This document shows positions 1-23,640 of a DNA stretch of 30,548 nucleotides, in pieces (position 1 is the stretch's first letter; each line of letters begins with the position of its first letter). The stretch lies in IMG/VR virus record IMGVR_UViG_3300045988_118519; one strand, given 5' to 3'. The notes beneath the pieces are model-generated. The model saw nothing but the letters and a program-made list of their open reading frames with translations, ran no database searches and was not told the origin of the DNA. The DNA is from a virus. Lineage: Duplodnaviria; Heunggongvirae; Uroviricota; Caudoviricetes. The position numbers and the translations under genes are program-made.

Positions 1-379
1 AGCGATTACCTAAATCAGCATCACAAGTGCTTACATCAATGGAAACTTCCATGCCTTCGATTAATTCTGGCAAGTTGTAAGTTTGGCTTACAGGTTGGCT
101 ACCCTGAAGCATGGCGGCGCGGTGACACCAGATAATCCAGCCAAGCGCCATATCCCATGCCATGTATTCTCTATCGCCATTTTTTGCCCTACGGCGATCT
201 ACAGATTCCCCGAAACGCTTCTCCATAAATAATTCATAGGCTGCTCGTTCATCCGATACTGCTGCCAGCGATGCCAGTGCGATTTCATAAGCCAGGCGCT
301 CAATATTGTCTCGCACGTCCAGGCTGCCGATTCGCTCTCTGATTTCTTTAATCAGTTCTTTGTCGGTAAAAGTAGTCAT
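1..379 (-). CDS. Hypothetical protein, C-terminus truncated by window edge (N-term MTTFTDKELIKEIRERIGSLD...)
   Basis: ATG at 379 (minus), open to window edge; not recognised. Confidence 0.5.
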   Translation of the reverse strand, partial: MTTFTDKELIKEIRERIGSLDVRDNIERLAYEIALASLAAVSDERAAYELFMEKRFGESVDRRRAKNGDREYMAWDMALGWIIWCHRAAMLQGSQPVSQTYNLPELIEGMEVSIDVSTCDADLGNR

Positions 380-13874: not shown

Positions 13875-14927
13875 ATGAAAAATACTGTAAAAATAAACAG
13901 TGTTGATTTAATCAACGCTGATTGCCTGCATTTTATTCAGTCCCTGCCTGATGATTCCATTGACCTGATTGTTACCGATCCGCCGTACTTCAAGGTGAAA
14001 CCCAACGGCTGGGACAATCAGTGGAAAGGGGACGAAGATTACCTTAAGTGGCTGGACCACTGTCTGGCCCAGTTCTGGCGGGTGTTAAAACCTGCCGGAA
14101 GCCTTTACCTGTTCTGTGGGCATCGCCTGGCATCTGATATTGAGATCATGATGCGTGAACGTTTCAACGTGCTTAACCATATCATCTGGGCGAAGCCGTC
14201 CGGACGTTGGAATGGGTGTAATAAAGAAAGTCTGCGTGCATATTTTCCTGCCACAGAGCGCGTTCTGTTTGCTGAACATTACCAGGGGCCATATCGCGGC
14301 AAAAGTGACGGCTATGCGGCAAAAGAAAGGGAACTCAAACAGCACATAATGGCACCGCTGATTTCGTATTTCAGGGATGCTCGTGCCGAACTGGGTATAA
14401 CGGCAAAACAAATTGCCGAAGCCACAGGTAAGAAAAATATGGTTTCCCACTGGTTTGGTGCCAGTCAGTGGCAGTTGCCGAATGAGGCTGACTACCGGAA
14501 GTTACAGGCACTGTTTTCCCGTATAGCGGCAGAGAAGTTTCAGGAACAACAACTGGAACAACCACACCACCAGCTGGTGGCATCTTATGATTCACTGAAT
14601 CGCAAATATTCTGAATTGCTGGATGAGTTTAAATCTCTCCGGCGCTATTTCTCCGTATCAGTCTCCGTGCCTTATACCGATGTCTGGATGCATAAACCCG
14701 TTCAGTTCTACCCGGGGAAACATCCGTGTGAGAAACCGGCGGATATGCTCAGGCAAATAATCAATGCCAGTAGTCGACCAGGTGATCTGGTTGCTGATTT
14801 TTTTATGGGATCCGGTTCCACAATAAAAGCAGCAATGGCGCTGGGGCGTCGGGCCTTAGGTGTTGAGCTTGAGTCAGAGCGGTTTAACCAGACAGTGAAA
14901 GAGATAAACGAGCTGGTGGGGAAATAA
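13875..14927 (+). CDS. Beta-class DNA methyltransferase (N6-adenine or N4-cytosine), 350 aa
   Basis: Motif IV TDPPYF near N-terminus and motif [10 protein letters not shown] near C-terminus (beta-class order) with a long central insert. Confidence 0.85.
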
Positions 14928-14933
14928 TCTGGT

Positions 14934-14956
14934 GGCCACGTCAGGTGGCCTTTTTA
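14934..14956 (+). terminator. Rho-independent terminator after the methyltransferase gene
   Basis: GGCCAC-gtcag-GTGGCC hairpin followed by TTTTTATTT. Confidence 0.6.
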
Positions 14957-14994
14957 TTTCCATTACACAGCACCCGCATCTGCGAGGTGGGGTT

Positions 14995-15210
14995 ATGAAA
15001 TCCATGGATAAGTTAACAACGGGTGTCGCCTATGGCACCTCAGCAGGTAGTGCCGGGTACTGGTTTTTACAGTTGCTCGATAAAGTCACGCCCTCACAGT
15101 GGGCGGCAATAGGTGTGCTGGGTAGTCTGGTATTTGGCTTGCTGACGTATCTGACAAACCTTTATTTCAAGATTAAAGAAGACAAGCGTAAGGCTGCACG
15201 GGGAGAGTAA
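14995..15210 (+). CDS. S21-type pinholin with dual-start motif, 71 aa
   Basis: [31 protein letters not shown]...[22 protein letters not shown] closely matches phage 21 S21 as I recall it, including MKSM dual start. Confidence 0.85.
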
Positions 15211-15214
15211 TTCA

Positions 15215-15529
15215 ATGACTCAAAACTATGAAGTGATTGTGAAAGGGATCCGCAATTTTGAGAATAAAGTTACGGTAACTTTAGCGTTACGGGACAAAAA
15301 ACGCTTTGACGGTGAAATTTTTGACCTGGACATCTCGCTGGACCGTGTTGAAGGTGCCGCGCTGGAGTTTTATGAGGCAGCAGCCAGAAGGAGCATCAGA
15401 CAGGTCTTCCTGGATGTTGCTGCCGGGTTATGTGAAGGGGACGAGCTGTTGCCAGAAACGCGCCCCTGTTCAAAGGCGCGGTATACCATAAAAATTAACA
15501 GTTCTGATAACTCGATTACGGGTTGTTAG
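15215..15529 (+). CDS. Hypothetical cytoplasmic protein inserted between holin and endolysin, 104 aa
   Basis: ATG with GGGGAGAG RBS; no TM segment; not recognised. Confidence 0.6.
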   Translation: MTQNYEVIVKGIRNFENKVTVTLALRDKKRFDGEIFDLDISLDRVEGAALEFYEAAARRSIRQVFLDVAAGLCEGDELLPETRPCSKARYTIKINSSDNSITGC

Positions 15530-16118: not shown

Positions 16119-16582
16119 GCAGAGTCGCCGCGATTATTTATGCTCTGGTTATCTGCATCATCGTCTGCCTGTCATGGGCTGTTAATCATTACCGTGATAA
16201 CGCCATTACCTACAAAGCCCAGCGCGACAAAAATGCCAGAGAACTGGAGAAGGCGAACGCCACCATTACTGACATGCAGCAGCGCCAGCGTGCTGCTGAT
16301 GCACTCGATGCTAAATACACGAAGGAGTTAGCTGATGCGAAAGCTGAAAATGATGCTCTTCGGCGCAAGCTTGATAATGGTGGTCGGGTGTTCGTCAAAG
16401 GAAAATGCCCTGTGCCAACCTCAGCCGAAGCCTCCAGCGCCTCCGGCATGGGCAATGATGCCACCGTCGAACTCTCTCCAGTTGCTGGACGAAACGTTCT
16501 CGGTATCCGGGACGGAATTATCCGCGACCAAACAGCACTGAGAACGCTTCAGGAATACATCAGGACGCAATGCCTTCGATGA
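16115..16582 (+). CDS. Rz: Rz i-spanin, 155 aa
   Basis: [44 protein letters not shown] is near-identical to lambda Rz N-terminus; GTG start overlapping endolysin end. Confidence 0.85.
16335..16541 (+). CDS. Rz1: Rz1 o-spanin lipoprotein embedded in the +1 frame of Rz, 68 aa
   Basis: [22 protein letters not shown] lipobox plus Pro-rich [11 protein letters not shown] as in lambda Rz1; AAGGAG RBS. Confidence 0.8.
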
Positions 16583-16826: not shown

Positions 16827-17159
16827 ACGGATAAAGGTATTCAAGCCTGACACATCATGCGCTGTATCGTCGCCGTATTCCCGTATTAACAGAGACCGTA
16901 GCCCGACGGGGAACTCCTTCTGCGCGAGTGTGCGGGAATAATCAAAAACGATGCACACCGGGTTTTTACCGCGTTTATGGTTCGCGGGTTTGTCCCTCAT
17001 GCTCGCCAGTCCTGTGCGGGGGTGGAAGAAACAGGACACTCACACAGATTCTTGTGGGCACGATGCTATTCCTTTCTGGATTATCCCGATGCCATTCATG
17101 CAGGGCGCTGTATCAGACGTTCGTCATGGCTGTCAGGCTGACGGGTCCTCCCGGTGGGG

Positions 17160-17350
17160 TGGCCTGCCACGGGGCGGGAGCGTCGCGGAAAAAGGCTAGT
17201 TTTTGCATTTTTATTGGCCACCATCATCTTTGCATCTTATTGATTATTAATGGTTATTTGTTTTTTGCATGTCGAATTGAGTGTTTTTTGTTCGACATCG
17301 AACGCGTTTTCTTAAAGTTGTTCGCACGATGCATGTTTAAAGCTCTCCGG
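17160..17350 (+). other. cos site: cosN at about 17172-17183 and candidate cosB with small-terminase binding repeats
   Basis: CACGGGGCGGGAGCGTCGCGG resembles lambda cosN ACGGGGCGGCGACCTCGCGG as I recall it; 8-bp inverted repeat ATGTCGAA/TTCGACAT at 17268-17299; about 186 nt upstream of terminase small subunit gene. Confidence 0.65.
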
Positions 17351-17357
17351 AGGAAAT

Positions 17358-17849
17358 ATGGATCATGAGTTGAAAAACCTGGTGCTGAATATTAATCAAC
17401 TGGCGGCTTTATCTGGTCTGCACCGCCAGACTGTCGTGGCAAGACTGAAAAACATTCGTCCCGCTGGTGGACATGACAAACTCAAGCTATACCGGTTGAC
17501 CGATATTCTGACTGAATTTATGGGGTTACCACCGCCGGTTGCTGAGGGCGAAATGGATCCACATGAACGCAAAGCCTGGTATCAGTCTGAACGTGAGCGT
17601 CTTAAGTTCGAACAGGAAACGGCACAACTCATTCCGGCCAGTGATGTCAGACGGGAGTTTGCCATCTGGGCAAAAGCGGTCGTGCAGGTGCTGGAGACAT
17701 TACCGGATATTCTGGAACGTGACTGCGGCCTGCAGCCTGCCGCTGTGAGCCGTGTTCAGTCCATTATTGATGATCTGCGCGATCAGATAGCCCTGCGGGT
17801 GACCGAAGCAGGTGCGGATGATGAGGAGGAATTACAGCAGGAGGAGTAA
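17358..17849 (+). CDS. Terminase small subunit (Nu1-like), 163 aa
   Basis: Position after cos; N-terminal HTH-like NINQLAALSGLHRQTVVARLKNI; GGAGGA RBS. Confidence 0.8.
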   Translation: MDHELKNLVLNINQLAALSGLHRQTVVARLKNIRPAGGHDKLKLYRLTDILTEFMGLPPPVAEGEMDPHERKAWYQSERERLKFEQETAQLIPASDVRREFAIWAKAVVQVLETLPDILERDCGLQPAAVSRVQSIIDDLRDQIALRVTEAGADDEEELQQEE

Positions 17850-19951
17850 TGCTGAATCAGGAAACCGCAAAGGCAGCACGAACCGATTCAGGTTATATCC
17901 TTCGCGCACCGAGACGAATGCGGGTTGCTGATGCCGTTGCTCAGTATATGCGGGTGCCCATGGGGGCAGGGAACTCAGTCCCGTGGGATCCGCTGGTGGC
18001 ACCGTATGTTATTGAGCCGATGAACTGCCTGGCCTCGCGTGAATACGACGCAGTGATATTTGTTGGCCCGGCACGAACCGGCAAGACTATCGGCCTGATT
18101 GACGGCTGGGTGATTTACAACGTGATTTGCGACCCTGCGGATATGCTGATCATTCAGATGACGGAGGAAAAAGCCCGCGAACACTCCAAAAAACGACTCG
18201 CCAGAACGTTTCGCGTCAGCCCGGAAGTGGTCAGTCGCCTGAGTCCGAACAAAAATGACAACAACGTTTATGACAGAACATTCCTTGCTGGCAACTACCT
18301 GAAAATCGGCTGGCCGTCAGTCAATATCATGTCCTCATCAGATTATAAATGCGTCGCGCTGACGGATTATGACCGTTTTCCGGAAGATATTGATGGCGAG
18401 GGGGATGCTTTCTCTCTTGCCTCAAAACGTACCACAACATTTATGTCCAGTGGTATGACGCTGGTGGAGAGTTCCCCCGGCAGGGATGTGAAGGATGTGA
18501 AATGGCGACGGACTTCACCGCATGAGGCTCCACCAACCACTGGGATACTGTCGCTCTATAACCGTGGCGATCGCCGTCGCTGGTACTGGCCCTGTCCACA
18601 CTGTGGTGAGTATTTTCAGCCCTGCGGCGATGTGGTTGCTGGTTTCCGTGATATTGCCGATCCCGTGCTGGCAAGTGAGGCGGCTTATATTCAGTGTCCT
18701 TCCTGTTCAGGACGGATTATGCCTGAACAAAAACGTGAGCTGAACGGACGTGGGGTCTGGCTGCGGGATGGTGAATCCATCAATGCGGATGGCAGTCGTT
18801 ATGGTGATCCCCGACGCTCACGTATTGCGTCATTCTGGATGGAGGGTCCGGCAGCTGCTTACCAGACACTCTCGCAACTCGTTTACAAACTGCTTACTGC
18901 AGAACAGGAATACGAGACAACCGGAAGTGAAGAAACACTCAAGACGGTTATCAATACCGACTGGGGATTACCTTATCTTCCCCGCGCCAGCATGGAGCAA
19001 CGAAAAAGTGAACTGCTTGAGCAGCGGGCAGAGCCAGTTCCTTCCCGCAGTGTGCCGGATGGCGTTAATTTCCTTGTGGCGACAGTGGATGTGCAGGCGG
19101 GACGTCATCGCCGTTTTGTGGTTCAGGTAACGGGCTATGGCAGCCGTGGCGAACGCTGGATTATTGATCGTTACAACATCACGCAGTCATTGCGCGGTGA
19201 CAGCGACGGGGAGAGCCAGCGAATTGATCCGGCCAGTTATCCGGAAGACTGGGATGTCCTGCTGACGGATGTTTTTCATAAAAGCTGGCCGCTGGCCTCC
19301 GATCCTTCTCAACAAATGCGACTGATGGCAATGGCGGTGGACTCCGGCGGTGAAGACGGGGTCACTGATAATGCCTATAAATTCTGGCGTCGTTGCCGTC
19401 GTGATGGCCTTGGTAAACGTATTTACCTGTTTAAGGGCGACAGCATCCGGCGCGCAAAACTGATCACCCGTACATTCCCTGATAACACCGGACGAACGGG
19501 CCGACGGGCGCAGGCCGCAGGTGATGTACCGCTCTGGCTTCTTCAGACGGATGCCCTGAAAGACCGGGTGAATAACGCGTTATGGCGTGACTCGCCAGGT
19601 CCCGGCTATGTGCATTTCCCTGACTGGCTGGGGAGCTGGTTTTACGACGAACTGACGTATGAAGAGCGGAGCAGTGACGGGAAATGGAGTAAGCCGGGTC
19701 GCGGTGCCAACGAAGCTTTTGACCTGATGGTGTATGCCGAGGCTCTGGTCATTCTGCATGGATACGAAAAGATCCGCTGGCCGGATGCACCGGAGTGGGC
19801 GAGCCGGGAAACCTGGCTGGAGTGTGTCCCGGACAGTACCGAACCGTCACCCTCACCGGAACCGGTATCCACGCCTGTTAAAAAACAAAAACGGAAGAAA
19901 ACAGTAACTGACGATGTTAACCCCTGGCTGACTTCCGGAGGATGGTTATGA
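17849..19951 (+). CDS. Terminase large subunit (lambda gpA-like), 700 aa
   Basis: Walker A-like VGPARTGKT; WPCPHCGEYFQ parallels lambda A VACPHCGEEQY; size and synteny. Confidence 0.9.
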   Translation: MLNQETAKAARTDSGYILRAPRRMRVADAVAQYMRVPMGAGNSVPWDPLVAPYVIEPMNCLASREYDAVIFVGPARTGKTIGLIDGWVIYNVICDPADMLIIQMTEEKAREHSKKRLARTFRVSPEVVSRLSPNKNDNNVYDRTFLAGNYLKIGWPSVNIMSSSDYKCVALTDYDRFPEDIDGEGDAFSLASKRTTTFMSSGMTLVESSPGRDVKDVKWRRTSPHEAPPTTGILSLYNRGDRRRWYWPCPHCGEYFQPCGDVVAGFRDIADPVLASEAAYIQCPSCSGRIMPEQKRELNGRGVWLRDGESINADGSRYGDPRRSRIASFWMEGPAAAYQTLSQLVYKLLTAEQEYETTGSEETLKTVINTDWGLPYLPRASMEQRKSELLEQRAEPVPSRSVPDGVNFLVATVDVQAGRHRRFVVQVTGYGSRGERWIIDRYNITQSLRGDSDGESQRIDPASYPEDWDVLLTDVFHKSWPLASDPSQQMRLMAMAVDSGGEDGVTDNAYKFWRRCRRDGLGKRIYLFKGDSIRRAKLITRTFPDNTGRTGRRAQAAGDVPLWLLQTDALKDRVNNALWRDSPGPGYVHFPDWLGSWFYDELTYEERSSDGKWSKPGRGANEAFDLMVYAEALVILHGYEKIRWPDAPEWASRETWLECVPDSTEPSPSPEPVSTPVKKQKRKKTVTDDVNPWLTSGGWL

Positions 19952-20160: not shown

Positions 20161-21668
20161 TGGCAATTCTTGATGATGTGATTGGCGTTTTTTCACCAGG
20201 ATGGAAAGCGGCAAGGCTGCGTTCCCGTGCGGTGATCCAGGCTTATGAGGCCGTAAAAACGACGCGGACACACAAAGCCCGGCGGGAGAACCGAACTGCC
20301 GACCAGTTAAGCCAGTACGGGGCCGTGTCGTTACGTGAGCAGGCCCGTTACCTTGATAACAACCACGATCTGGTTATTGGTGTATTTGACAAGCTGGAAG
20401 AACGGGTGGTGGGGAAAAACGGGATTATTGTCGAGCCACATCCGGTATTACGCAATGGGGCCATTGCCCGTGATCTGGCAGCGGAGATACGCACCCGATG
20501 GAGTGAATGGTCTGTCAGTCCGGAAGTCACCGGGCAGTTTACCCGTCCGATGCTGGAACGTCTGATGCTGCGTACCTGGCTGCGCGATGGTGAGGTGTTT
20601 GCCCAGATGGTTTCCGGGCGCATAAACAGCCTGACGCCTTCTGCCGGTGTTCATTTCTGGCTGGAGGCGCTCGAGCCGGACTTTATTCCCATGACCAGTG
20701 ATGAGAGCAACAGGCTGAATCAGGGCGTGTTTGTTGATGACTGGGGGCGTCCCGAAAAATATCTGGTGTATAAAAGCCGTCCCGTATCCGGGCGGCAGAT
20801 GGAAACCAAAGAAGTGGATGCAGAGCGAATGCTGCATCTTAAATTTGTTCGCCGTCTGCACCAGATGCGCGGGACGTCTTTGTTGTCCGGTGTGCTGATC
20901 CGCCTCAGTGCCCTGAAAGAGTATGAAGATTCTGAGCTGACTGCAGCAAGGATCGCCGCTGCTCTGGGGATGTACATCCGGAAAGGCGACGGGCAGAGCT
21001 ATGAACCGGATGGTAATGGCAGCAAGGAGAATGAACGCGAGCTTACCATTCAGCCAGGCATTATTTACGACGATCTGAAACCCGGCGAAGAAATCGGAAT
21101 GGTGAAGTCGGATCGTCCCAATCCTAACCTTGAAACTTTTCGTAATGGTCAGTTGCGTGCCGTGGCGGCGGGCAGTCGTCTGAGTTTTTCCAGTACGGCA
21201 CGCAACTATAACGGCACTTACAGCGCCCAGCGTCAGGAACTGGTTGAGTCTACTGATGGCTACCTGATCCTGCAGGACTGGTTTATTGGTGCCGTCACCC
21301 GCCCGATGTATCGTGCCTGGCTGAAACAGGCTGTGGCATCCGGTGTTATCAGGCTACCCCGCGATCTTGACCGTTCTTCACTGTATACCGCGGTGTATTC
21401 CGGACCGGTGATGCCGTGGATTGACCCTGTTAAGGAGGCTGAGGCCTGGAAAATCCAGATTCGTGGTGGAGCGGCGACAGAATCAGACTGGGTACGTGCT
21501 GGTGGTCGTAATCCGGATGATGTCAAACGTCGGCGCAAGGCCGAAATTGATGAAAACCGCAAGCTGGATCTGGTATTTGATACCGATCCGGCCAGTGATA
21601 AAGGAGGCAGCAGTGCCGCAACGAAACGACAGGAGCCGCAGCACACCGACGACCAGTCCGAAGAATAA
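20160..21668 (+). CDS. Portal protein (lambda gpB-like), 502 aa
   Basis: Size and synteny; ATG overlaps W stop. Confidence 0.85.
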   Translation: MAILDDVIGVFSPGWKAARLRSRAVIQAYEAVKTTRTHKARRENRTADQLSQYGAVSLREQARYLDNNHDLVIGVFDKLEERVVGKNGIIVEPHPVLRNGAIARDLAAEIRTRWSEWSVSPEVTGQFTRPMLERLMLRTWLRDGEVFAQMVSGRINSLTPSAGVHFWLEALEPDFIPMTSDESNRLNQGVFVDDWGRPEKYLVYKSRPVSGRQMETKEVDAERMLHLKFVRRLHQMRGTSLLSGVLIRLSALKEYEDSELTAARIAAALGMYIRKGDGQSYEPDGNGSKENERELTIQPGIIYDDLKPGEEIGMVKSDRPNPNLETFRNGQLRAVAAGSRLSFSSTARNYNGTYSAQRQELVESTDGYLILQDWFIGAVTRPMYRAWLKQAVASGVIRLPRDLDRSSLYTAVYSGPVMPWIDPVKEAEAWKIQIRGGAATESDWVRAGGRNPDDVKRRRKAEIDENRKLDLVFDTDPASDKGGSSAATKRQEPQHTDDQSEE

Positions 21669-23640
21669 TTCCTGGTTCAGGATGCAGGCTGGTCACCAGA
21701 GTGACGCGGATATTTATATTTATGACGAGATTGGTTTCTGGGGTGTTACAGCGAAGCAGTTTATCAGTGATCTGAATGCACTGGGCGATATCACCCACAT
21801 TAATCTCCATATTAATTCACCGGGTGGCGATGTCTTTGAAGGCATCGCCATTTTTAATGCGCTGAAAACACATGGGGCGTCCATTACCGTTTATGTCGAC
21901 GGTGTGGCGGCGTCAATGGCGTCGGTCATTGCGATGGTGGGAAACCCGGTCATTATGCCGGAAAACACCTTCATGATGATTCATAAACCATTTGGCTTTA
22001 CGGGCGGTGATGCGGAGGACATGCGCACCTATGCCGACCTGCTCGATAAGGTTGAGGCGGTTCTGTTACCCGCTTATGCACAGAAAACCGGGAAAACCAC
22101 CGATGAAATTGCTGCCATGCTGGCGGATGAGACCTGGATGTCCGGTGCCGAATGTCTGGCACATGGATTTGCTGATCAGGTAACGCCAGCCGTTAAGGCA
22201 ATGGCATGTATTCAGTCAAAACGTACAGAGGAATTTAAAAAGATGCCGGAATCCATTCGAAACATGATTACTCCGCCACGCAACAGTGCTCCACGCGTAC
22301 AGGATAATGAACCTGTAGCCTCCCGGACGCCAGTGCAGGCAGCAGCACCTGTGGTGGATGAAAACAGTATCCGTGCGCAGGTACTGGCAGAGCAAAAAGC
22401 GCGTGTAAACGGTATTAATGATTTGTTTGCCATGTTTGGCGGGCGTTATCAGACGCTGCAGGCTCAGTGTCTTGCCGATCCTGAATGTTCGCTGGAGCAA
22501 GCCCGCGAAAAGCTGTTGAACGAGATGGGGCGCGAGTCCACGCCATCCAATAAAAATACCCCGGCTCATATTTATGCCGGTAACGGTAATTTTGTGGGGG
22601 ACGGGATCCGCCAGGCGCTGATGGCGCGTGCCGGATTTGAAAAAACCGAACGTGATAATGTCTACAACGGGATGACCCTGCGTGAATATGCTCGTATGTC
22701 ACTGACTGAACGGGGGATTGGGGTTTCCAGTTATAACCCGATGCAGATGGTCGGTGCGGCGTTCACACACAGTACGTCTGACTTCGGTAATATTCTGCTG
22801 GATGTTGCGAACAAAGCCATTCTGCAGGGCTGGGAAGATGCCCCTGAAACCTATGAACAGTGGACGCGGAAAGGTCAGTTGTCTGATTTTAAAATTGCCC
22901 ATCGTGTGGGTATGGGGGGCTTCAGTGCTCTGCGTCAGGTGCGTGAAGGGGCGGAATATAAATACGTCACCACCGGAGATAAACAGGCCACTATTGCACT
23001 GGCGACCTATGGCGAGCTGTTCAGTATCACCCGTCAGGCCATTATCAATGATGATCTGAATATGCTGACCGATGTCCCGATGAAACTGGGCCGTGCGGCG
23101 AAATCCACTATTGCCGATCTGGTTTATGCCATTCTGACGTCTAACCCGAAAATCTCCACAGATAATGTAAGTCTGTTCGATAAAGCGAAACATGCAAACG
23201 TACTGGAGAGCGCTGCAATGGACGTGGCATCGCTGGATAAAGCCCGCCAGTTGATGCGTGTTCAGAAAGAGGGGGAGCGTCATCTGAATATTCGTCCTGC
23301 GTTCGTACTGGTACCGACGGCGATGGAGTCTGTTGCTAACCAGGTCATTCGCTCCTCAAGTGTCAAGGGGGCTGACATTAACGCCGGTATTATTAACCCG
23401 GTGAAAGATTTTGCGACCGTTATTGCAGAGCCTCGTCTTGATGATAACAGCCAGACCACTTTCTACCTGGCTGCGTCCAAAGGCTCCGATACGATTGAAG
23501 TGGCTTATCTCAACGGTGTGGATACGCCATATATTGATCAGATGGAGGGCTTCAGTGTGGATGGCGTGACAACGAAAGTGCGTATTGACGCCGGTGTCGC
23601 GCCAGTTGATCACCGCGGTCTGGTGAAATGTACGGCGTAA
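21613..23640 (+). CDS. Prohead protease (ClpP/S49-like) fused to major capsid protein (Mu gpT-like fold), 675 aa
   Basis: GTG with AAGGAGG RBS at 21601; N-terminal ClpP-like INSPGGDV and AASMAS; long C-terminal capsid-like region; single uninterrupted frame. Confidence 0.8.
   Translation: MPQRNDRSRSTPTTSPKNNSWFRMQAGHQSDADIYIYDEIGFWGVTAKQFISDLNALGDITHINLHINSPGGDVFEGIAIFNALKTHGASITVYVDGVAASMASVIAMVGNPVIMPENTFMMIHKPFGFTGGDAEDMRTYADLLDKVEAVLLPAYAQKTGKTTDEIAAMLADETWMSGAECLAHGFADQVTPAVKAMACIQSKRTEEFKKMPESIRNMITPPRNSAPRVQDNEPVASRTPVQAAAPVVDENSIRAQVLAEQKARVNGINDLFAMFGGRYQTLQAQCLADPECSLEQAREKLLNEMGRESTPSNKNTPAHIYAGNGNFVGDGIRQALMARAGFEKTERDNVYNGMTLREYARMSLTERGIGVSSYNPMQMVGAAFTHSTSDFGNILLDVANKAILQGWEDAPETYEQWTRKGQLSDFKIAHRVGMGGFSALRQVREGAEYKYVTTGDKQATIALATYGELFSITRQAIINDDLNMLTDVPMKLGRAAKSTIADLVYAILTSNPKISTDNVSLFDKAKHANVLESAAMDVASLDKARQLMRVQKEGERHLNIRPAFVLVPTAMESVANQVIRSSSVKGADINAGIINPVKDFATVIAEPRLDDNSQTTFYLAASKGSDTIEVAYLNGVDTPYIDQMEGFSVDGVTTKVRIDAGVAPVDHRGLVKCTA

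What the first reader, a model, noticed from the sequence alone, without database searches (positions are those of the whole stretch)
17160..17350. Lambda-like cosN and candidate cosB upstream of the small terminase gene
CACGGGGCGGGAGCGTCGCGG closely parallels the lambda cosN sequence I recall, predicting a 12-nt cohesive end GGGCGGGAGCGT. Downstream there is an 8-bp inverted repeat (ATGTCGAA/TTCGACAT) in an AT-rich tract, plausibly small-terminase or IHF sites. This fixes the virion genome ends and shows that the packaging module is lambda-type.
Basis: partly seen in the sequence, partly recalled or inferred. Interest (0 to 1): 0.45.

Follow-up and report, generated by a model that had tools for sequence, protein, structure and literature searches.

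The report
Lambda-type cos site of a prophage
This is the DNA-packaging cut site (cos) of a common E. coli lambda-like prophage, built like phage lambda's own site, so it is a correct but ordinary annotation and not a new kind of element.

Summary
The 21-mer is at 17168-17188. The composite cosQ-cosN pattern occurs once in the window and in none of 100 shuffles. By homology the nicks fall at 17171|17172 (top strand) and 17183|17184 (bottom strand), giving a 12-nt 5' end GGGCGGGAGCGT. This differs from lambda only at positions 7, 8, 9 and 11, in the half of cosN where published work finds natural variation common.

Two phage records (cdtI, Tritos) begin at exactly this base with the identical sequence, and Hafnia phage yong2 begins at position 13. 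The cyanophage Cr-LKS3 is reported to have 5' cohesive ends and shares the same flanking bases.

The 8-bp inverted repeat is not significant alone (P about 0.06). It does lie at the positions (+97 and +120) where 12 relatives carry inverted copies of a TTCRNCAYC motif. A third copy zone lies at about +43 to +58 and an IHF-like site at +62. That is lambda's R3-I1-R2-R1 layout.

The large terminase is GpA family (25% identical to lambda gpA). The small terminase is DUF1441, only a remote Nu1 homologue. No virion ends have been mapped for this phage.

The parts
17143..17149 (+). cosQ, the packaging-termination signal (GGGTCCT)
   Evidence: Exact match to the lambda heptamer. It lies at -29..-23 from the top-strand nick here and at -30..-24 in lambda. 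It is part of the composite pattern found once in the window and in 0 of 100 shuffles. It is conserved in mEp460-type, LLS/mEp043, VT1-Sakai, CP-1639 and yong2. Feiss et al. describe cosQ as a highly conserved 7-bp site needed for termination (PMC4669245).
17167..17188 (.). cosN core (22 bp), the substrate of the large-terminase endonuclease
   Evidence: 16 of 22 positions match lambda. 6 of 11 base pairs are rotationally symmetric, against 5 of 11 in lambda. The CG dinucleotides flanking both nick positions are conserved. The sequence is invariant in at least 120 IMG/VR contigs.
17172..17183 (+). Predicted 12-nt 5' cohesive end GGGCGGGAGCGT; nicks at 17171|17172 (top strand) and 17183|17184 (bottom strand)
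   Evidence: The left half (positions 1-6) is identical to lambda. Differences are at positions 7, 8, 9 and 11 only. Published work finds natural variation common at positions 7-12 and reports that lambda mutations there, including C11G, have little or no phenotypic effect. Records AB285204.1 (cdtI) and OV696610.1 (Tritos) begin at this base with the same 12-mer, and yong2 begins at position 13. Cr-LKS3, reported to have 5' cohesive ends, shares the CG|GGGC start and the |CGCGGAA flank.
17184..17204 (+). Conserved block just right of cosN (CGCGGAAAAAGGCTAGTTTTT)
   Evidence: Identical in cdtI, HannyBb, mEp460-type and 569R4, whatever the cosB/TerS class. Recognisable in LLS, yong2, Chris1, Fels-1 and Cr-LKS3. 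Its function is inferred only: an extended large-terminase contact, or a spacer that sets the cosN-to-R3 distance.
17214..17229 (+). R3-like small-terminase site zone (TTGGCCACCATCATCT), +43..+58
   Evidence: Overlapping copies of the half-site motif in the + orientation. Every DUF1441-TerS relative examined has such copies at +41..+52. Lambda R3 is at bp 50-65, and terminase cuts 47 +/- 2 bp from the R site (PMC9026076). No binding has been tested.
17233..17245 (-). IHF-like site (I1 equivalent); minus strand reads AATCAATAAGATG
   Evidence: One mismatch to WATCAANNNNTTR, which is not significant alone (observed 1, expected 0.32). The exact consensus sits at the same position and orientation (+60..+64) in mEp460-type, cdtI-type/HannyBb, CP-1639 and Chris1. 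It lies between R3 and R2, as in lambda.
17268..17276 (-).
   Evidence: Inverted copy of the half-site at +97. All 12 relatives examined have an inverted copy at +94..+99. The arm is conserved in 19 window-type IMG/VR contigs while the spacer and flank vary.
17291..17299 (+).
   Evidence: Exact match to TTCRNCAYC at +120. Relatives carry one at +118..+122. Motif position 8 is the same base (T or C) in R2 and R1 in all 13 phages compared.
17358..17849 (+). Small terminase gene (163 aa, DUF1441 / phrog_141)
   Evidence: Pfam DUF1441, E 4.6e-44. phrog_141 'terminase small subunit', E 2.7e-77, with a cross-hit to lambda Nu1's phrog_57 at 8e-9. Nu1 in turn hits phrog_141 at 5.6e-8. hhalign of the family profile against Nu1 is collinear over 140 columns, E 1e-4, probability 58%. 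The ATG is at +187; lambda nu1 starts at +191.
17849..19951 (+). Large terminase gene (700 aa, GpA family)
   Evidence: Pfam GpA_ATPase 8.5e-72 and GpA_nuclease 1.1e-85. 25% identical to lambda gpA over 623 residues, E 4e-19. 88% identical to cdtI TerL, with the C-terminal 320 residues (nuclease domain) almost identical, 1 difference in 320.

Best explanation
17143-17300 is the cohesive-end site (cos) of a lambda-like temperate phage. It has the same three-part layout as lambda cos.

- cosB: the small terminase (DUF1441 type, with an N-terminal helix-turn-helix) binds three copies of a TTCRNCAYC-like motif. These lie at +43..+58 (R3, forward), +97..+105 (R2, inverted) and +120..+128 (R1, forward). 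An IHF-type bend at +62..+74 probably helps.
- cosN: this anchoring places the GpA-family large terminase on cosN. It nicks the top strand between 17171 and 17172 and the bottom strand between 17183 and 17184. The product is virion DNA with 12-nt 5' overhangs, GGGCGGGAGCGT.
- Direction and termination: packaging proceeds rightward from the cosB-bearing end through the terminase and head genes. It stops at the next cos on the concatemer, where cosQ (GGGTCCT, 17143-17149) is needed for the terminal cut.

What is shown: the sequence elements, their geometry, their conservation, and the terminase families. What is inferred by homology: the nick positions, protein binding and the direction of packaging.
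For: 1. The composite cosQ-cosN pattern occurs once in the window and in 0 of 100 shuffles. cosQ spacing is one base shorter than in lambda.
2. The overhang differs from lambda only at positions 7, 8, 9 and 11, and the CG dinucleotides at both nicks are kept. This matches the published pattern for lambda-like cosN: positions 7-12 vary, the left half and cosQ are conserved, and Gifsy-1 differs at positions 8, 9 and 11 (PMC4669245).
3. Genome records of cdtI and Tritos start at the predicted top-strand nick with the identical 33 and 12 bases respectively. yong2 starts at the predicted bottom-strand nick.
4. Cr-LKS3 has a small terminase of the same family and is reported to have 5' cohesive ends (PMC9303873). 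It shares the flanks ...CG|GGGC...|CGCGGAA..GGC.GTTTTT.
5. In 12 relatives, with small-terminase identity to the window ranging from 86% down to 44%, motif copies lie at fixed positions: + at about +45, - at about +97, + at about +121. An exact IHF consensus lies at about +62 in four lineages.
6. In the window, matches to TTCRNCAYC with at most 1 mismatch number 3 against 0.31 expected.
7. The region is modular. The same cosN and flank carries at least three cosB classes. The cdtI large-terminase nuclease domain is almost identical to the window's (1 difference in its last 320 residues), while the two small terminases are only 42% identical.
8. The large terminase is GpA family and the portal is lambda family. 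The small-terminase start is at +187, against +191 in lambda.
9. PhiR40.1, PhiR47.1 and PhiR55.1 were used as phages in infection and defence assays (the text seen reports modest protection against them). PhiR40_1 differs from the window at one base between cosQ and the small-terminase ATG (17215), and PhiR47_1 is identical over 17172-17260.
Against: - No virion DNA ends have been mapped for this phage or for any phage with this exact cosB.
- The basis on which the cdtI, Tritos and yong2 records were started is unknown to me. Asakura 2007 is not held.
- The LLS/mEp213 end is explicitly an inference by its authors.
- mEp460_4F5 starts 5 nt earlier and lacks 3 nt inside cosN.
- The inverted repeat (P = 0.064) and the IHF-like site are not significant on their own.
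- The R-site motif was derived partly from the same sequences used to count it.
- No residue of the small-terminase recognition helix tracks the T/C class of the R sites.
- No binding data exist for any DUF1441 small terminase that I could find.
Confidence: 0.85

Rival explanations
1. It is a cos site, but the stagger differs from 12 nt. The bottom-strand nick would lie a few bases from 17183|17184, so the overhang is not exactly GGGCGGGAGCGT.
For: Overhang length varies in this wider family. Cr-LKS3 has 9 nt. The Gifsy-2 spacing between the conserved flanks is 14 nt, and VT1-Sakai and CP-1639 show 11 and 10 nt. Bottom-strand nicking in lambda is positioned by cosB anchoring rather than by local sequence.
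Against: In both lambda and Cr-LKS3 the bottom nick falls immediately before CGCGG. Here CGCGG begins at +13. yong2's record starts exactly at +13. The R3 zone is at the lambda-like distance.
Confidence: 0.07
2. The inverted repeat at 17269-17298 is not a small-terminase site. It would be an RNA hairpin in the late transcript (attenuator or translational control of the small-terminase gene), or the operator of another regulator. cosN remains real.
For: The simple scan calls a weak terminator-like site at 17289-17304. The repeat folds into a 9-bp stem of -12.8 kcal/mol.
Against: The fold is unremarkable (z = -1.78; 12 of 200 shuffles fold as well). Terminator-like sites are not enriched (3 against 1.2 +/- 1.1). 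In relatives the two arms often differ at the two central positions, which would break a stem, while keeping the half-site pattern. A third copy in the same orientation as R1 lies at about +45, which a hairpin does not explain. Rfam gives only a sub-threshold hit to a human lncRNA.
Confidence: 0.08
3. The site is a decayed relic in a defective prophage, or the phage packages by the headful route, so no cohesive ends are made from it.
For: Many E. coli prophages are defective. Related prophages (VT1-Sakai, CP-1639) have 1-2 nt missing in cosN.
Against: Phages tested in infection and defence assays carry the same cos: PhiR40_1 differs at one base between cosQ and the ATG, and PhiR47_1 is identical over 17172-17260. 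cosQ, cosN and the R sites are intact. The large terminase is full length with both GpA domains. Authors of related work place GpA-type large terminases with phages that make 5' cohesive ends.
Confidence: 0.03

Closest known systems
Bacteriophage lambda cos (cosQ-cosN-cosB)
   Same: Exact cosQ heptamer at nearly the same distance. Left half of the overhang and the CG flanks are identical. Same 12-nt spacing between the flanks. R3(+)-I1-R2(-)-R1(+) order at similar distances. Small-terminase start about 190 bp from the left end. GpA-type large terminase.
   Different: Overhang positions 7, 8, 9 and 11 differ. The R-site sequence is unrelated (TTCRNCAYC against lambda's CGTTTCC-type). The small terminase is DUF1441, not Nu1 (no BLAST match). 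The large terminase is only 25% identical. The lambda-type sequence ATCATTATCA left of cosQ is absent here.
Phage cdtI (AB285204.1), Tritos and HannyBb
   Same: Identical cosQ, identical 12-mer and identical next 21 bases. The cdtI and Tritos records start at this base. The large-terminase nuclease domain is almost identical, 1 difference in the last 320 residues.
   Different: A different cosB (GCATTTCCATGGCGGCGGCAGCATG...) with no TTCRNCAYC copies, and a small terminase only 42% identical with a different N-terminal domain.
mEp460 / Ayreon / phi458 / 569R4 group
   Same: Same cosQ-cosN (mEp460's own record has G at overhang position 12), same cosB geometry, small terminase 86% identical.
   Different: The R sites are of the CAC class (TCATCACC / GGTGTCGA) where the window has the CAT class. 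They carry an exact IHF consensus. Ayreon's authors did not locate cos.
mEp213 / mEp043 / LLS putative cos (GGGCGGCGCGCT)
   Same: Same small-terminase family (62-63% identical), same cosQ, same flanks, R sites at +45, +98 and +121. The end is annotated as a 5' extended cohesive site.
   Different: The overhang differs at positions 7, 8, 9 and 10 from the window. cosB is shorter, with R1 overlapping the small-terminase start. The end is inferred, not measured.
Gifsy-1 and other natural cosN variants (Feiss et al. 2015; Vahanian et al. 2017)
   Same: The variation is confined to overhang positions 7-12. [quoted passage not shown]
   Different: I did not retrieve the Gifsy-1 sequence. The Vahanian survey is not held, so I cannot say whether this exact 12-mer is listed there.
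Cyanophage Cr-LKS3
   Same: Small terminase of the same family (37% identical) and a GpA large terminase. Reported to have 5' cohesive ends. Same CG|GGGC start, the same following CGCGGAA..GGC.GTTTTT block, and a cosQ-like GGGTCCC upstream.
   Different: 9-nt overhang, a different host phylum, and no enterobacterial-type R sites.
N15-type simple cosB and PICI cos sites
   Same: They share cosQ and cosN with lambda-like phages.
   Different: N15 has a single R3 plus a remote rR2. PICIs have no R repeats and use Rpp. The window has the complex three-site layout and a full set of terminase, portal and capsid genes.

Membership tests
Lambda-like cos site (sense of Feiss et al. 2015) | [quoted passage not shown] | tested here: inconclusive
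   Sequence level is met: 8 of 12 identical, left half 6 of 6, with 12 nt between the conserved CG flanks. Related records start at the predicted nicks. The physical ends of this phage cannot be measured with these tools.
Lambda-like cos site | Conserved 5'-CG-3' dinucleotides flanking both nick positions | tested here: met
   CG at 17170-17171 and CG at 17184-17185. The criterion is from PMC4669245.
Lambda-like cos site | 7-bp cosQ upstream of cosN at the lambda distance | tested here: met
   GGGTCCT at 17143-17149. It is at -29..-23 here and at -30..-24 in lambda.
Lambda-like cos site | Partial two-fold rotational symmetry of cosN | tested here: met
   6 of 11 symmetric pairs, against 5 of 11 in lambda.
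Lambda-like cos site, complex cosB | Three related R sequences with R2 inverted relative to R3 and R1, and an IHF site between R3 and R2 | tested here: inconclusive
   Motif copies lie at +43..58 (+), +97 (-) and +120 (+), with an IHF-like site at +62 (1 mismatch). The layout recurs in 12 relatives. Binding was not tested. The window's R3 and IHF elements are one-mismatch matches.
Lambda-like cos site | Location immediately upstream of the small- and large-terminase genes, with cosB on the terminase-gene side | tested here: met
   Small-terminase ATG at +187 and the large terminase directly after it.
GpA-family large terminase (Pfam PF05876 + PF20454) | Both the GpA ATPase and GpA nuclease domains above Pfam cut-offs | tested here: met
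   242 bits and 288 bits, against cut-offs of 25.6 and 22.5. Collinear BLASTP alignment to lambda gpA, E 4e-19.
Nu1-family small terminase (lambda gpNu1) | Sequence membership of the Nu1 family | tested here: not met
   Pfam assigns DUF1441, with no Nu1-family model among the Pfam matches. BLASTP against Nu1 finds nothing. The best PHROG is phrog_141, whereas Nu1 is phrog_57.
Nu1-family small terminase (lambda gpNu1) | Remote homology and the same domain order (N-terminal HTH, central coiled region, C-terminal TerL-binding end) | tested here: inconclusive
   Reciprocal PHROG cross-hits at 8e-9 and 5.6e-8. hhalign is collinear over 140 columns at E 1e-4 but probability 58%. The HTH segments align. 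The single-sequence AlphaFold model was too poor to use (pLDDT 52).
Headful (pac) packaging | Large terminase of a headful clade, a pac site, and no conserved staggered-nick site | tested here: not met
   The large terminase is GpA family. A complete cosQ-cosN is present.

The most novel reading that the evidence does not exclude
DUF1441-type small terminases may read their own R-site code (TTCRNCAYC, in CAT and CAC classes). The code would be laid out in the same R3-I1-R2-R1 geometry as lambda, although the proteins share no pairwise sequence similarity with Nu1. At least three cosB/small-terminase specificity cassettes (window type, mEp460 type, cdtI type) are exchanged in nature onto one invariant chassis of cosQ, cosN and the large-terminase nuclease domain. 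That would make this group a natural test bed for how packaging specificity is swapped. A linked point: a cosQ variant (AGGTACT) in Fels-1, Gifsy-2, Chris1 and Pmp14 would contradict the view that cosQ does not vary.
Probability: 0.5. Interest if true: 0.35.

Novelty: new member of a known kind. Interest (0 to 1): 0.2.

Why it matters
- **Practical value.** It places the virion genome ends and packaging direction for a prophage type whose cos region matches 2168 of 5426 complete E. coli genomes. In those genomes the small terminase is labelled only 'DUF1441 family protein'. In the PhiR40_1 record, a spurious ORF is annotated across cos.
- **Annotation.** It allows correct orientation and annotation of related phage genomes. 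Ayreon's authors could not place cos.
- **Conceptual value.** It adds nothing new in kind. It extends the documented lambda cos architecture to a small-terminase family that has no binding data, and it gives testable R-site predictions.

Tried and rejected
- **Literature search for the 12-mer.** A full-text search for GGGCGGGAGCGT found only an unrelated mammalian promoter paper.
- **Papers not held.** Asakura 2007 (cdtI) and Vahanian 2017 (cosN survey) are not in the library. So the basis of the cdtI record start, and whether this exact 12-mer is already listed, could not be checked.
- **PDB sequence search.** Searching with the small terminase gave only noise, with E at or above 0.78.
- **Structure prediction.** Single-sequence AlphaFold of the small terminase gave pLDDT 52, and the N-terminal 64 residues were below 50. 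I discarded it and ran no fold search.
- **IMG/VR scan.** A scan for the exact cosN was meant to find contigs ending at cos. It returned 120 or more contigs, and in nearly all of the 80 listed the site is internal, so nothing was learned about ends. The contigs were useful for defining cosB classes.
- **RNA reading of the inverted repeat.** Rejected.
- **TTTTTGCAT / TTTGCAT direct repeats.** I considered the repeats at 17200, 17229 and 17262 as alternative small-terminase sites. I rejected them because the third copy is lost (GTATG) in most window-type relatives and the repeats are absent from other classes.
- **Recognition-helix residue.** I looked for a residue that tracks the CAT/CAC R-site classes and found none. 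Only a loose correlation appears in the loop after the helix (SNLK against KLK), which I do not rely on.
- **mEp460_4F5 record start.** It does not match the predicted nick and has a 3-nt gap in cosN. I treated this as uninformative, possibly an assembly artefact at the ends.

Full report
**What is at the coordinates**

The sequence CACGGGGCGGGAGCGTCGCGG lies at 17168-17188 on the + strand, and the proposed overhang GGGCGGGAGCGT at 17172-17183. It sits in the non-coding gap between the lysis genes and a terminase pair. The lysis genes are a holin, a lysozyme, Rz and Rz1. The terminase pair is a 163-aa protein starting at 17358 and a 700-aa protein at 17849-19951. The inverted repeat ATGTCGAA (17269-17276) / TTCGACAT (17291-17298) is perfect with a 14-nt spacer. 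It lies in a tract that is 63-68% A+T, against 49% for the window.

**Is it more than chance?**

I compared the site with a real lambda record joined end to start.
- The 22-bp cosN core matches at 16 of 22 positions.
- The overhang matches at 8 of 12, with positions 1-6 identical and differences at 7, 8, 9 and 11.
- The CG dinucleotides on the outer side of both nick positions are kept.
- A lambda 24-mer slid over both strands of the window scores best here (17/24 against at most 15/24 elsewhere). That is suggestive only.

The lambda cosQ heptamer GGGTCCT is present exactly at 17143-17149. That is 29 to 23 bases left of the predicted nick, against 30 to 24 in lambda, and the bases after it are also similar. 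The composite pattern GGGTCCT-N19/20-ACGGGGCGG-N6-CGCGG occurs once in the window and in none of 100 dinucleotide-preserving shuffles.

The inverted repeat taken alone is not significant. 6.4% of shuffles of the 174-bp tract contain a perfect inverted repeat of 8 bp or more.

**Where are the ends?**

No measurement exists for this phage, so the nick positions are inferred. Four independent lines agree.

1. *The pattern of differences from lambda.* Feiss and colleagues define lambda-like phages by 12-base 5' extensions similar to lambda's. They report that positions 7-12 vary naturally (N15 at 9 and 12, Gifsy-1 at 8, 9 and 11). The left half, the flanking CG pairs and cosQ are conserved. The lambda C11G change is phenotypically silent (PMC4669245). 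The window differs at 7, 8, 9 and 11, which fits this pattern.
2. *Record starts.* The genome records of phage cdtI (AB285204.1) and phage Tritos (OV696610.1) begin at the base equivalent to 17172. cdtI shares the identical first 33 bases. Hafnia phage yong2 begins at the equivalent of position 13, the predicted bottom-strand nick, and its other end finishes with a 12-mer preceded by cosQ. I could not read how those starts were chosen.
3. *A reported case in the same family.* Cyanophage Cr-LKS3 has a small terminase of the same family. Its authors report 5' cohesive ends of 9 nt (PMC9303873). Its ends read ...GACGCG | GGGCTCGCG | CGCGGAAGTCGGCAGTTTTTCG. This gives the same CG|GGGC start, and the same CGCGGAA..GGC.GTTTTT block directly after the overhang as in the window.
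4. *An inferred end in a relative.* Phage LLS (small terminase 63% identical) is annotated with a 5' extended cohesive site, GGGCGGCGCGCT, at the homologous place. Its authors state that this is inferred and matches the putative mEp213 cos analysed by Feiss (PMC12315714).

One record disagrees. mEp460_4F5 starts five bases earlier and lacks three bases inside cosN. I regard this as uninformative.

**What is the inverted repeat?**

I collected the cos regions of 13 phages carrying this small-terminase family, with protein identity to the window from 86% down to 44%. I indexed them from the predicted top-strand nick.

A half-site of the form TTCRNCAYC recurs at fixed places.
- One or several overlapping forward copies at +41 to +52.
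- One inverted copy at +94 to +99.
- One forward copy at +118 to +122.

The window's repeat arms are the second and third of these, at +97 and +120. Its forward zone TTGGCCACCATCATCT is at +43 to +58.

The base at motif position 8 is T in some lineages and C in others. It is the same in the inverted and forward copies in all 13 phages, and the upstream zone follows suit. Only about nine of these lineages are independent.

Among 19 IMG/VR contigs of the window's own class, the arms are unchanged while the spacer and flanks vary. In the window, matches to the motif with at most one mismatch number 3 against 0.31 expected. The motif was partly derived from these data, so this figure is generous.

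Between the first and second elements, an exact IHF consensus (WATCAANNNNTTR, minus strand) lies at +60 to +64 in the mEp460 group, the cdtI group, CP-1639 and Chris1. The window has a one-mismatch version at +62 (17233-17245). By itself this is not significant.

This order, forward site, IHF site, inverted site, forward site, is the published lambda R3-I1-R2-R1 arrangement. Lambda R3 is at bp 50-65, and terminase is known to cut 47 +/- 2 bp from its R site (PMC9026076). The small-terminase ATG is at +187, against +191 in lambda. The IHF-like element is a separate sequence upstream of the repeat.

**The proteins**

- *Large terminase.* It has both GpA domains well above Pfam cut-offs, and the portal is of the lambda family. 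It is only 25% identical to lambda gpA.
- *Small terminase.* It is Pfam DUF1441 and phrog_141. BLASTP against Nu1 finds nothing.
- *Profile-level relation to Nu1.* The window protein hits Nu1's PHROG at 8e-9, and Nu1 hits phrog_141 at 5.6e-8. A profile of 13 family members aligns collinearly with Nu1 over 140 columns at E 1e-4, but with probability only 58%.
- *HTH alignment.* The N-terminal segment LNINQLAALSGLHRQTVVARL lines up with Nu1's VNKKQLADIFGASIRTIQNW.
- *Failed attempt.* A single-sequence structure model was too poor to use.
- *Head genes.* They are of the Gifsy-2 kind, with ClpP protease fused to the capsid protein.

'Lambda-type packaging module' is therefore true of the mechanism and of the large terminase and portal. 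It is only remotely true of the small terminase.

**Modularity supports the assignment**

At least 120 IMG/VR contigs carry the identical cosN plus 12 flanking bases. In the 117 that could be extended, the sequence to the right falls into three main classes: window type, mEp460 type and cdtI type.

The cdtI large terminase is 88% identical overall to the window's, and almost identical (1 difference) over the last 320 residues, which hold the nuclease domain. The two small terminases are only 42% identical and have different N-terminal domains. So cosN travels with the nuclease domain and cosB with the small terminase. This is expected if the large subunit cuts cosN and the small subunit reads cosB.

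**Is the site functional?**

PhiR40.1, PhiR47.1 and PhiR55.1 were used as phages in infection and defence assays (the text seen reports modest protection against them). PhiR40_1 differs from the window at five bases in 1001. Only one of these (17215) lies between cosQ and the small-terminase ATG, and none is in cosQ, cosN or the R2/R1 arms. PhiR47_1 is identical over 17172-17260. A relic or defective site is therefore unlikely.

**Rivals**

- *A different stagger length.* This is possible in principle, because relatives show 9 to 14 nt between the conserved flanks. In both measured systems, though, the bottom nick falls just before CGCGG, which here starts at +13.
- *An RNA hairpin or terminator reading of the repeat.* This is weak. 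The fold z-score is -1.78, terminator-like sites are not enriched, and Rfam gives only a sub-threshold hit to a human lncRNA. It also does not explain the third copy at about +45.
- *Headful packaging.* This does not fit a GpA large terminase with a complete cosQ-cosN.

**Comparison with what is known, and novelty**

This is a lambda-like cos in the published sense. The same 12-mer already stands at the start of a 2007 GenBank record (cdtI). Natural variation of cosN in lambda-like phages has been surveyed, and complex cosB layouts in many such phages are noted in the literature.

Some things are not documented, as far as I could find.
- Any binding or end-mapping data for DUF1441-type small terminases from enterobacterial phages.
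- The R-site motif proposed here.

The site is unannotated in public records. RefSeq labels the small terminase 'DUF1441 family protein' at the listed matches, and 2168 of 5426 complete E. coli genomes hold a match to this region. The PhiR40_1 record carries a spurious ORF across cos.

**Verdict**

A correct reading of an ordinary and useful feature. It is a new member of a known kind, with low interest (0.2). Confidence that it is a functional lambda-type cos giving the predicted 12-nt 5' end is about 0.85. Confidence in the specific R-site and IHF assignments is lower, about 0.6 and 0.5.

Noticed in passing
L016 (Fels-1), L015 (Gifsy-2), L019 (Chris1), L021 (Pmp14): about 23-30 nt left of the predicted nick: These four phages carry AGGTACT (in AAAGGTACTCC) where lambda and the window have the cosQ heptamer GGGTCCT. 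The rest of the cos layout is kept. Published work says natural variation in cosQ is not apparent.
   Followed up: partly
L001 1-30 (mEp460_4F5); L008 (mEp460); L017 (VT1-Sakai); L020 (CP-1639): There are irregularities inside cosN of relatives. 4F5 lacks 3 nt (GGGCGGGAGCG-CGG) and its record starts 5 nt left of the nick. mEp460 has G at overhang position 12. VT1-Sakai and CP-1639 have 11 and 10 nt between the conserved flanks in place of 12. These could be real cos defects in prophages, or sequencing or assembly errors in a G+C-rich end region.
   Followed up: no
window 16928-17368 (+); L024 1664-1969: A 146-aa ORF runs straight across cosQ, cosN and cosB. Part of the equivalent stretch is annotated as a hypothetical protein in the PhiR40_1 record. 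It is very likely spurious.
   Followed up: partly
window 17849-19951 compared with L147 733-2829 (cdtI): The large terminase is almost identical to cdtI's over about the last 320 residues (1 difference) but clearly diverged over the first 380, and the first 20 residues do not align. This points to a recombination joint inside the gene, between the part that works with the small terminase and the nuclease part.
   Followed up: no
window 16900-17037: This stretch, just left of the cos region, is 98% identical to the right-end region of lambda-like phages such as 2B8, 4A7 and Lambda_4C10. Those phages have a different terminase type. It is a mosaic joint close to cos.
   Followed up: no
window 17200-17208, 17229-17235, 17262-17270: TTTTTGCAT occurs twice and TTTGCAT a third time in cosB. 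The third copy is changed to GTATG in most window-type relatives, and the repeats are absent in other classes. This is probably chance.
   Followed up: yes
window 21421-23640 (+): One 739-aa ORF combines a ClpP-type protease domain (residues 95-255) and a major capsid domain (441-736). This is the fused protease-capsid arrangement described for Gifsy-2 (mentioned).
   Followed up: partly
window 13875-14927, 14932-15210, 15215-15529, 16335-16541: Upstream context: a DNA N6/N4 methylase, a phage 21-type holin, a DUF1327 protein between the holin and the lysozyme, and an Rz1 lipoprotein gene embedded in Rz.
   Followed up: no
window 17240-17249 and 17390-17399: A 10-nt inverted repeat (90% complementary) links the IHF-like site to codons for the conserved LNINQL motif of the small terminase. 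It is probably a by-product of coding. I did not test it as a remote accessory site like N15's rR2.
   Followed up: no
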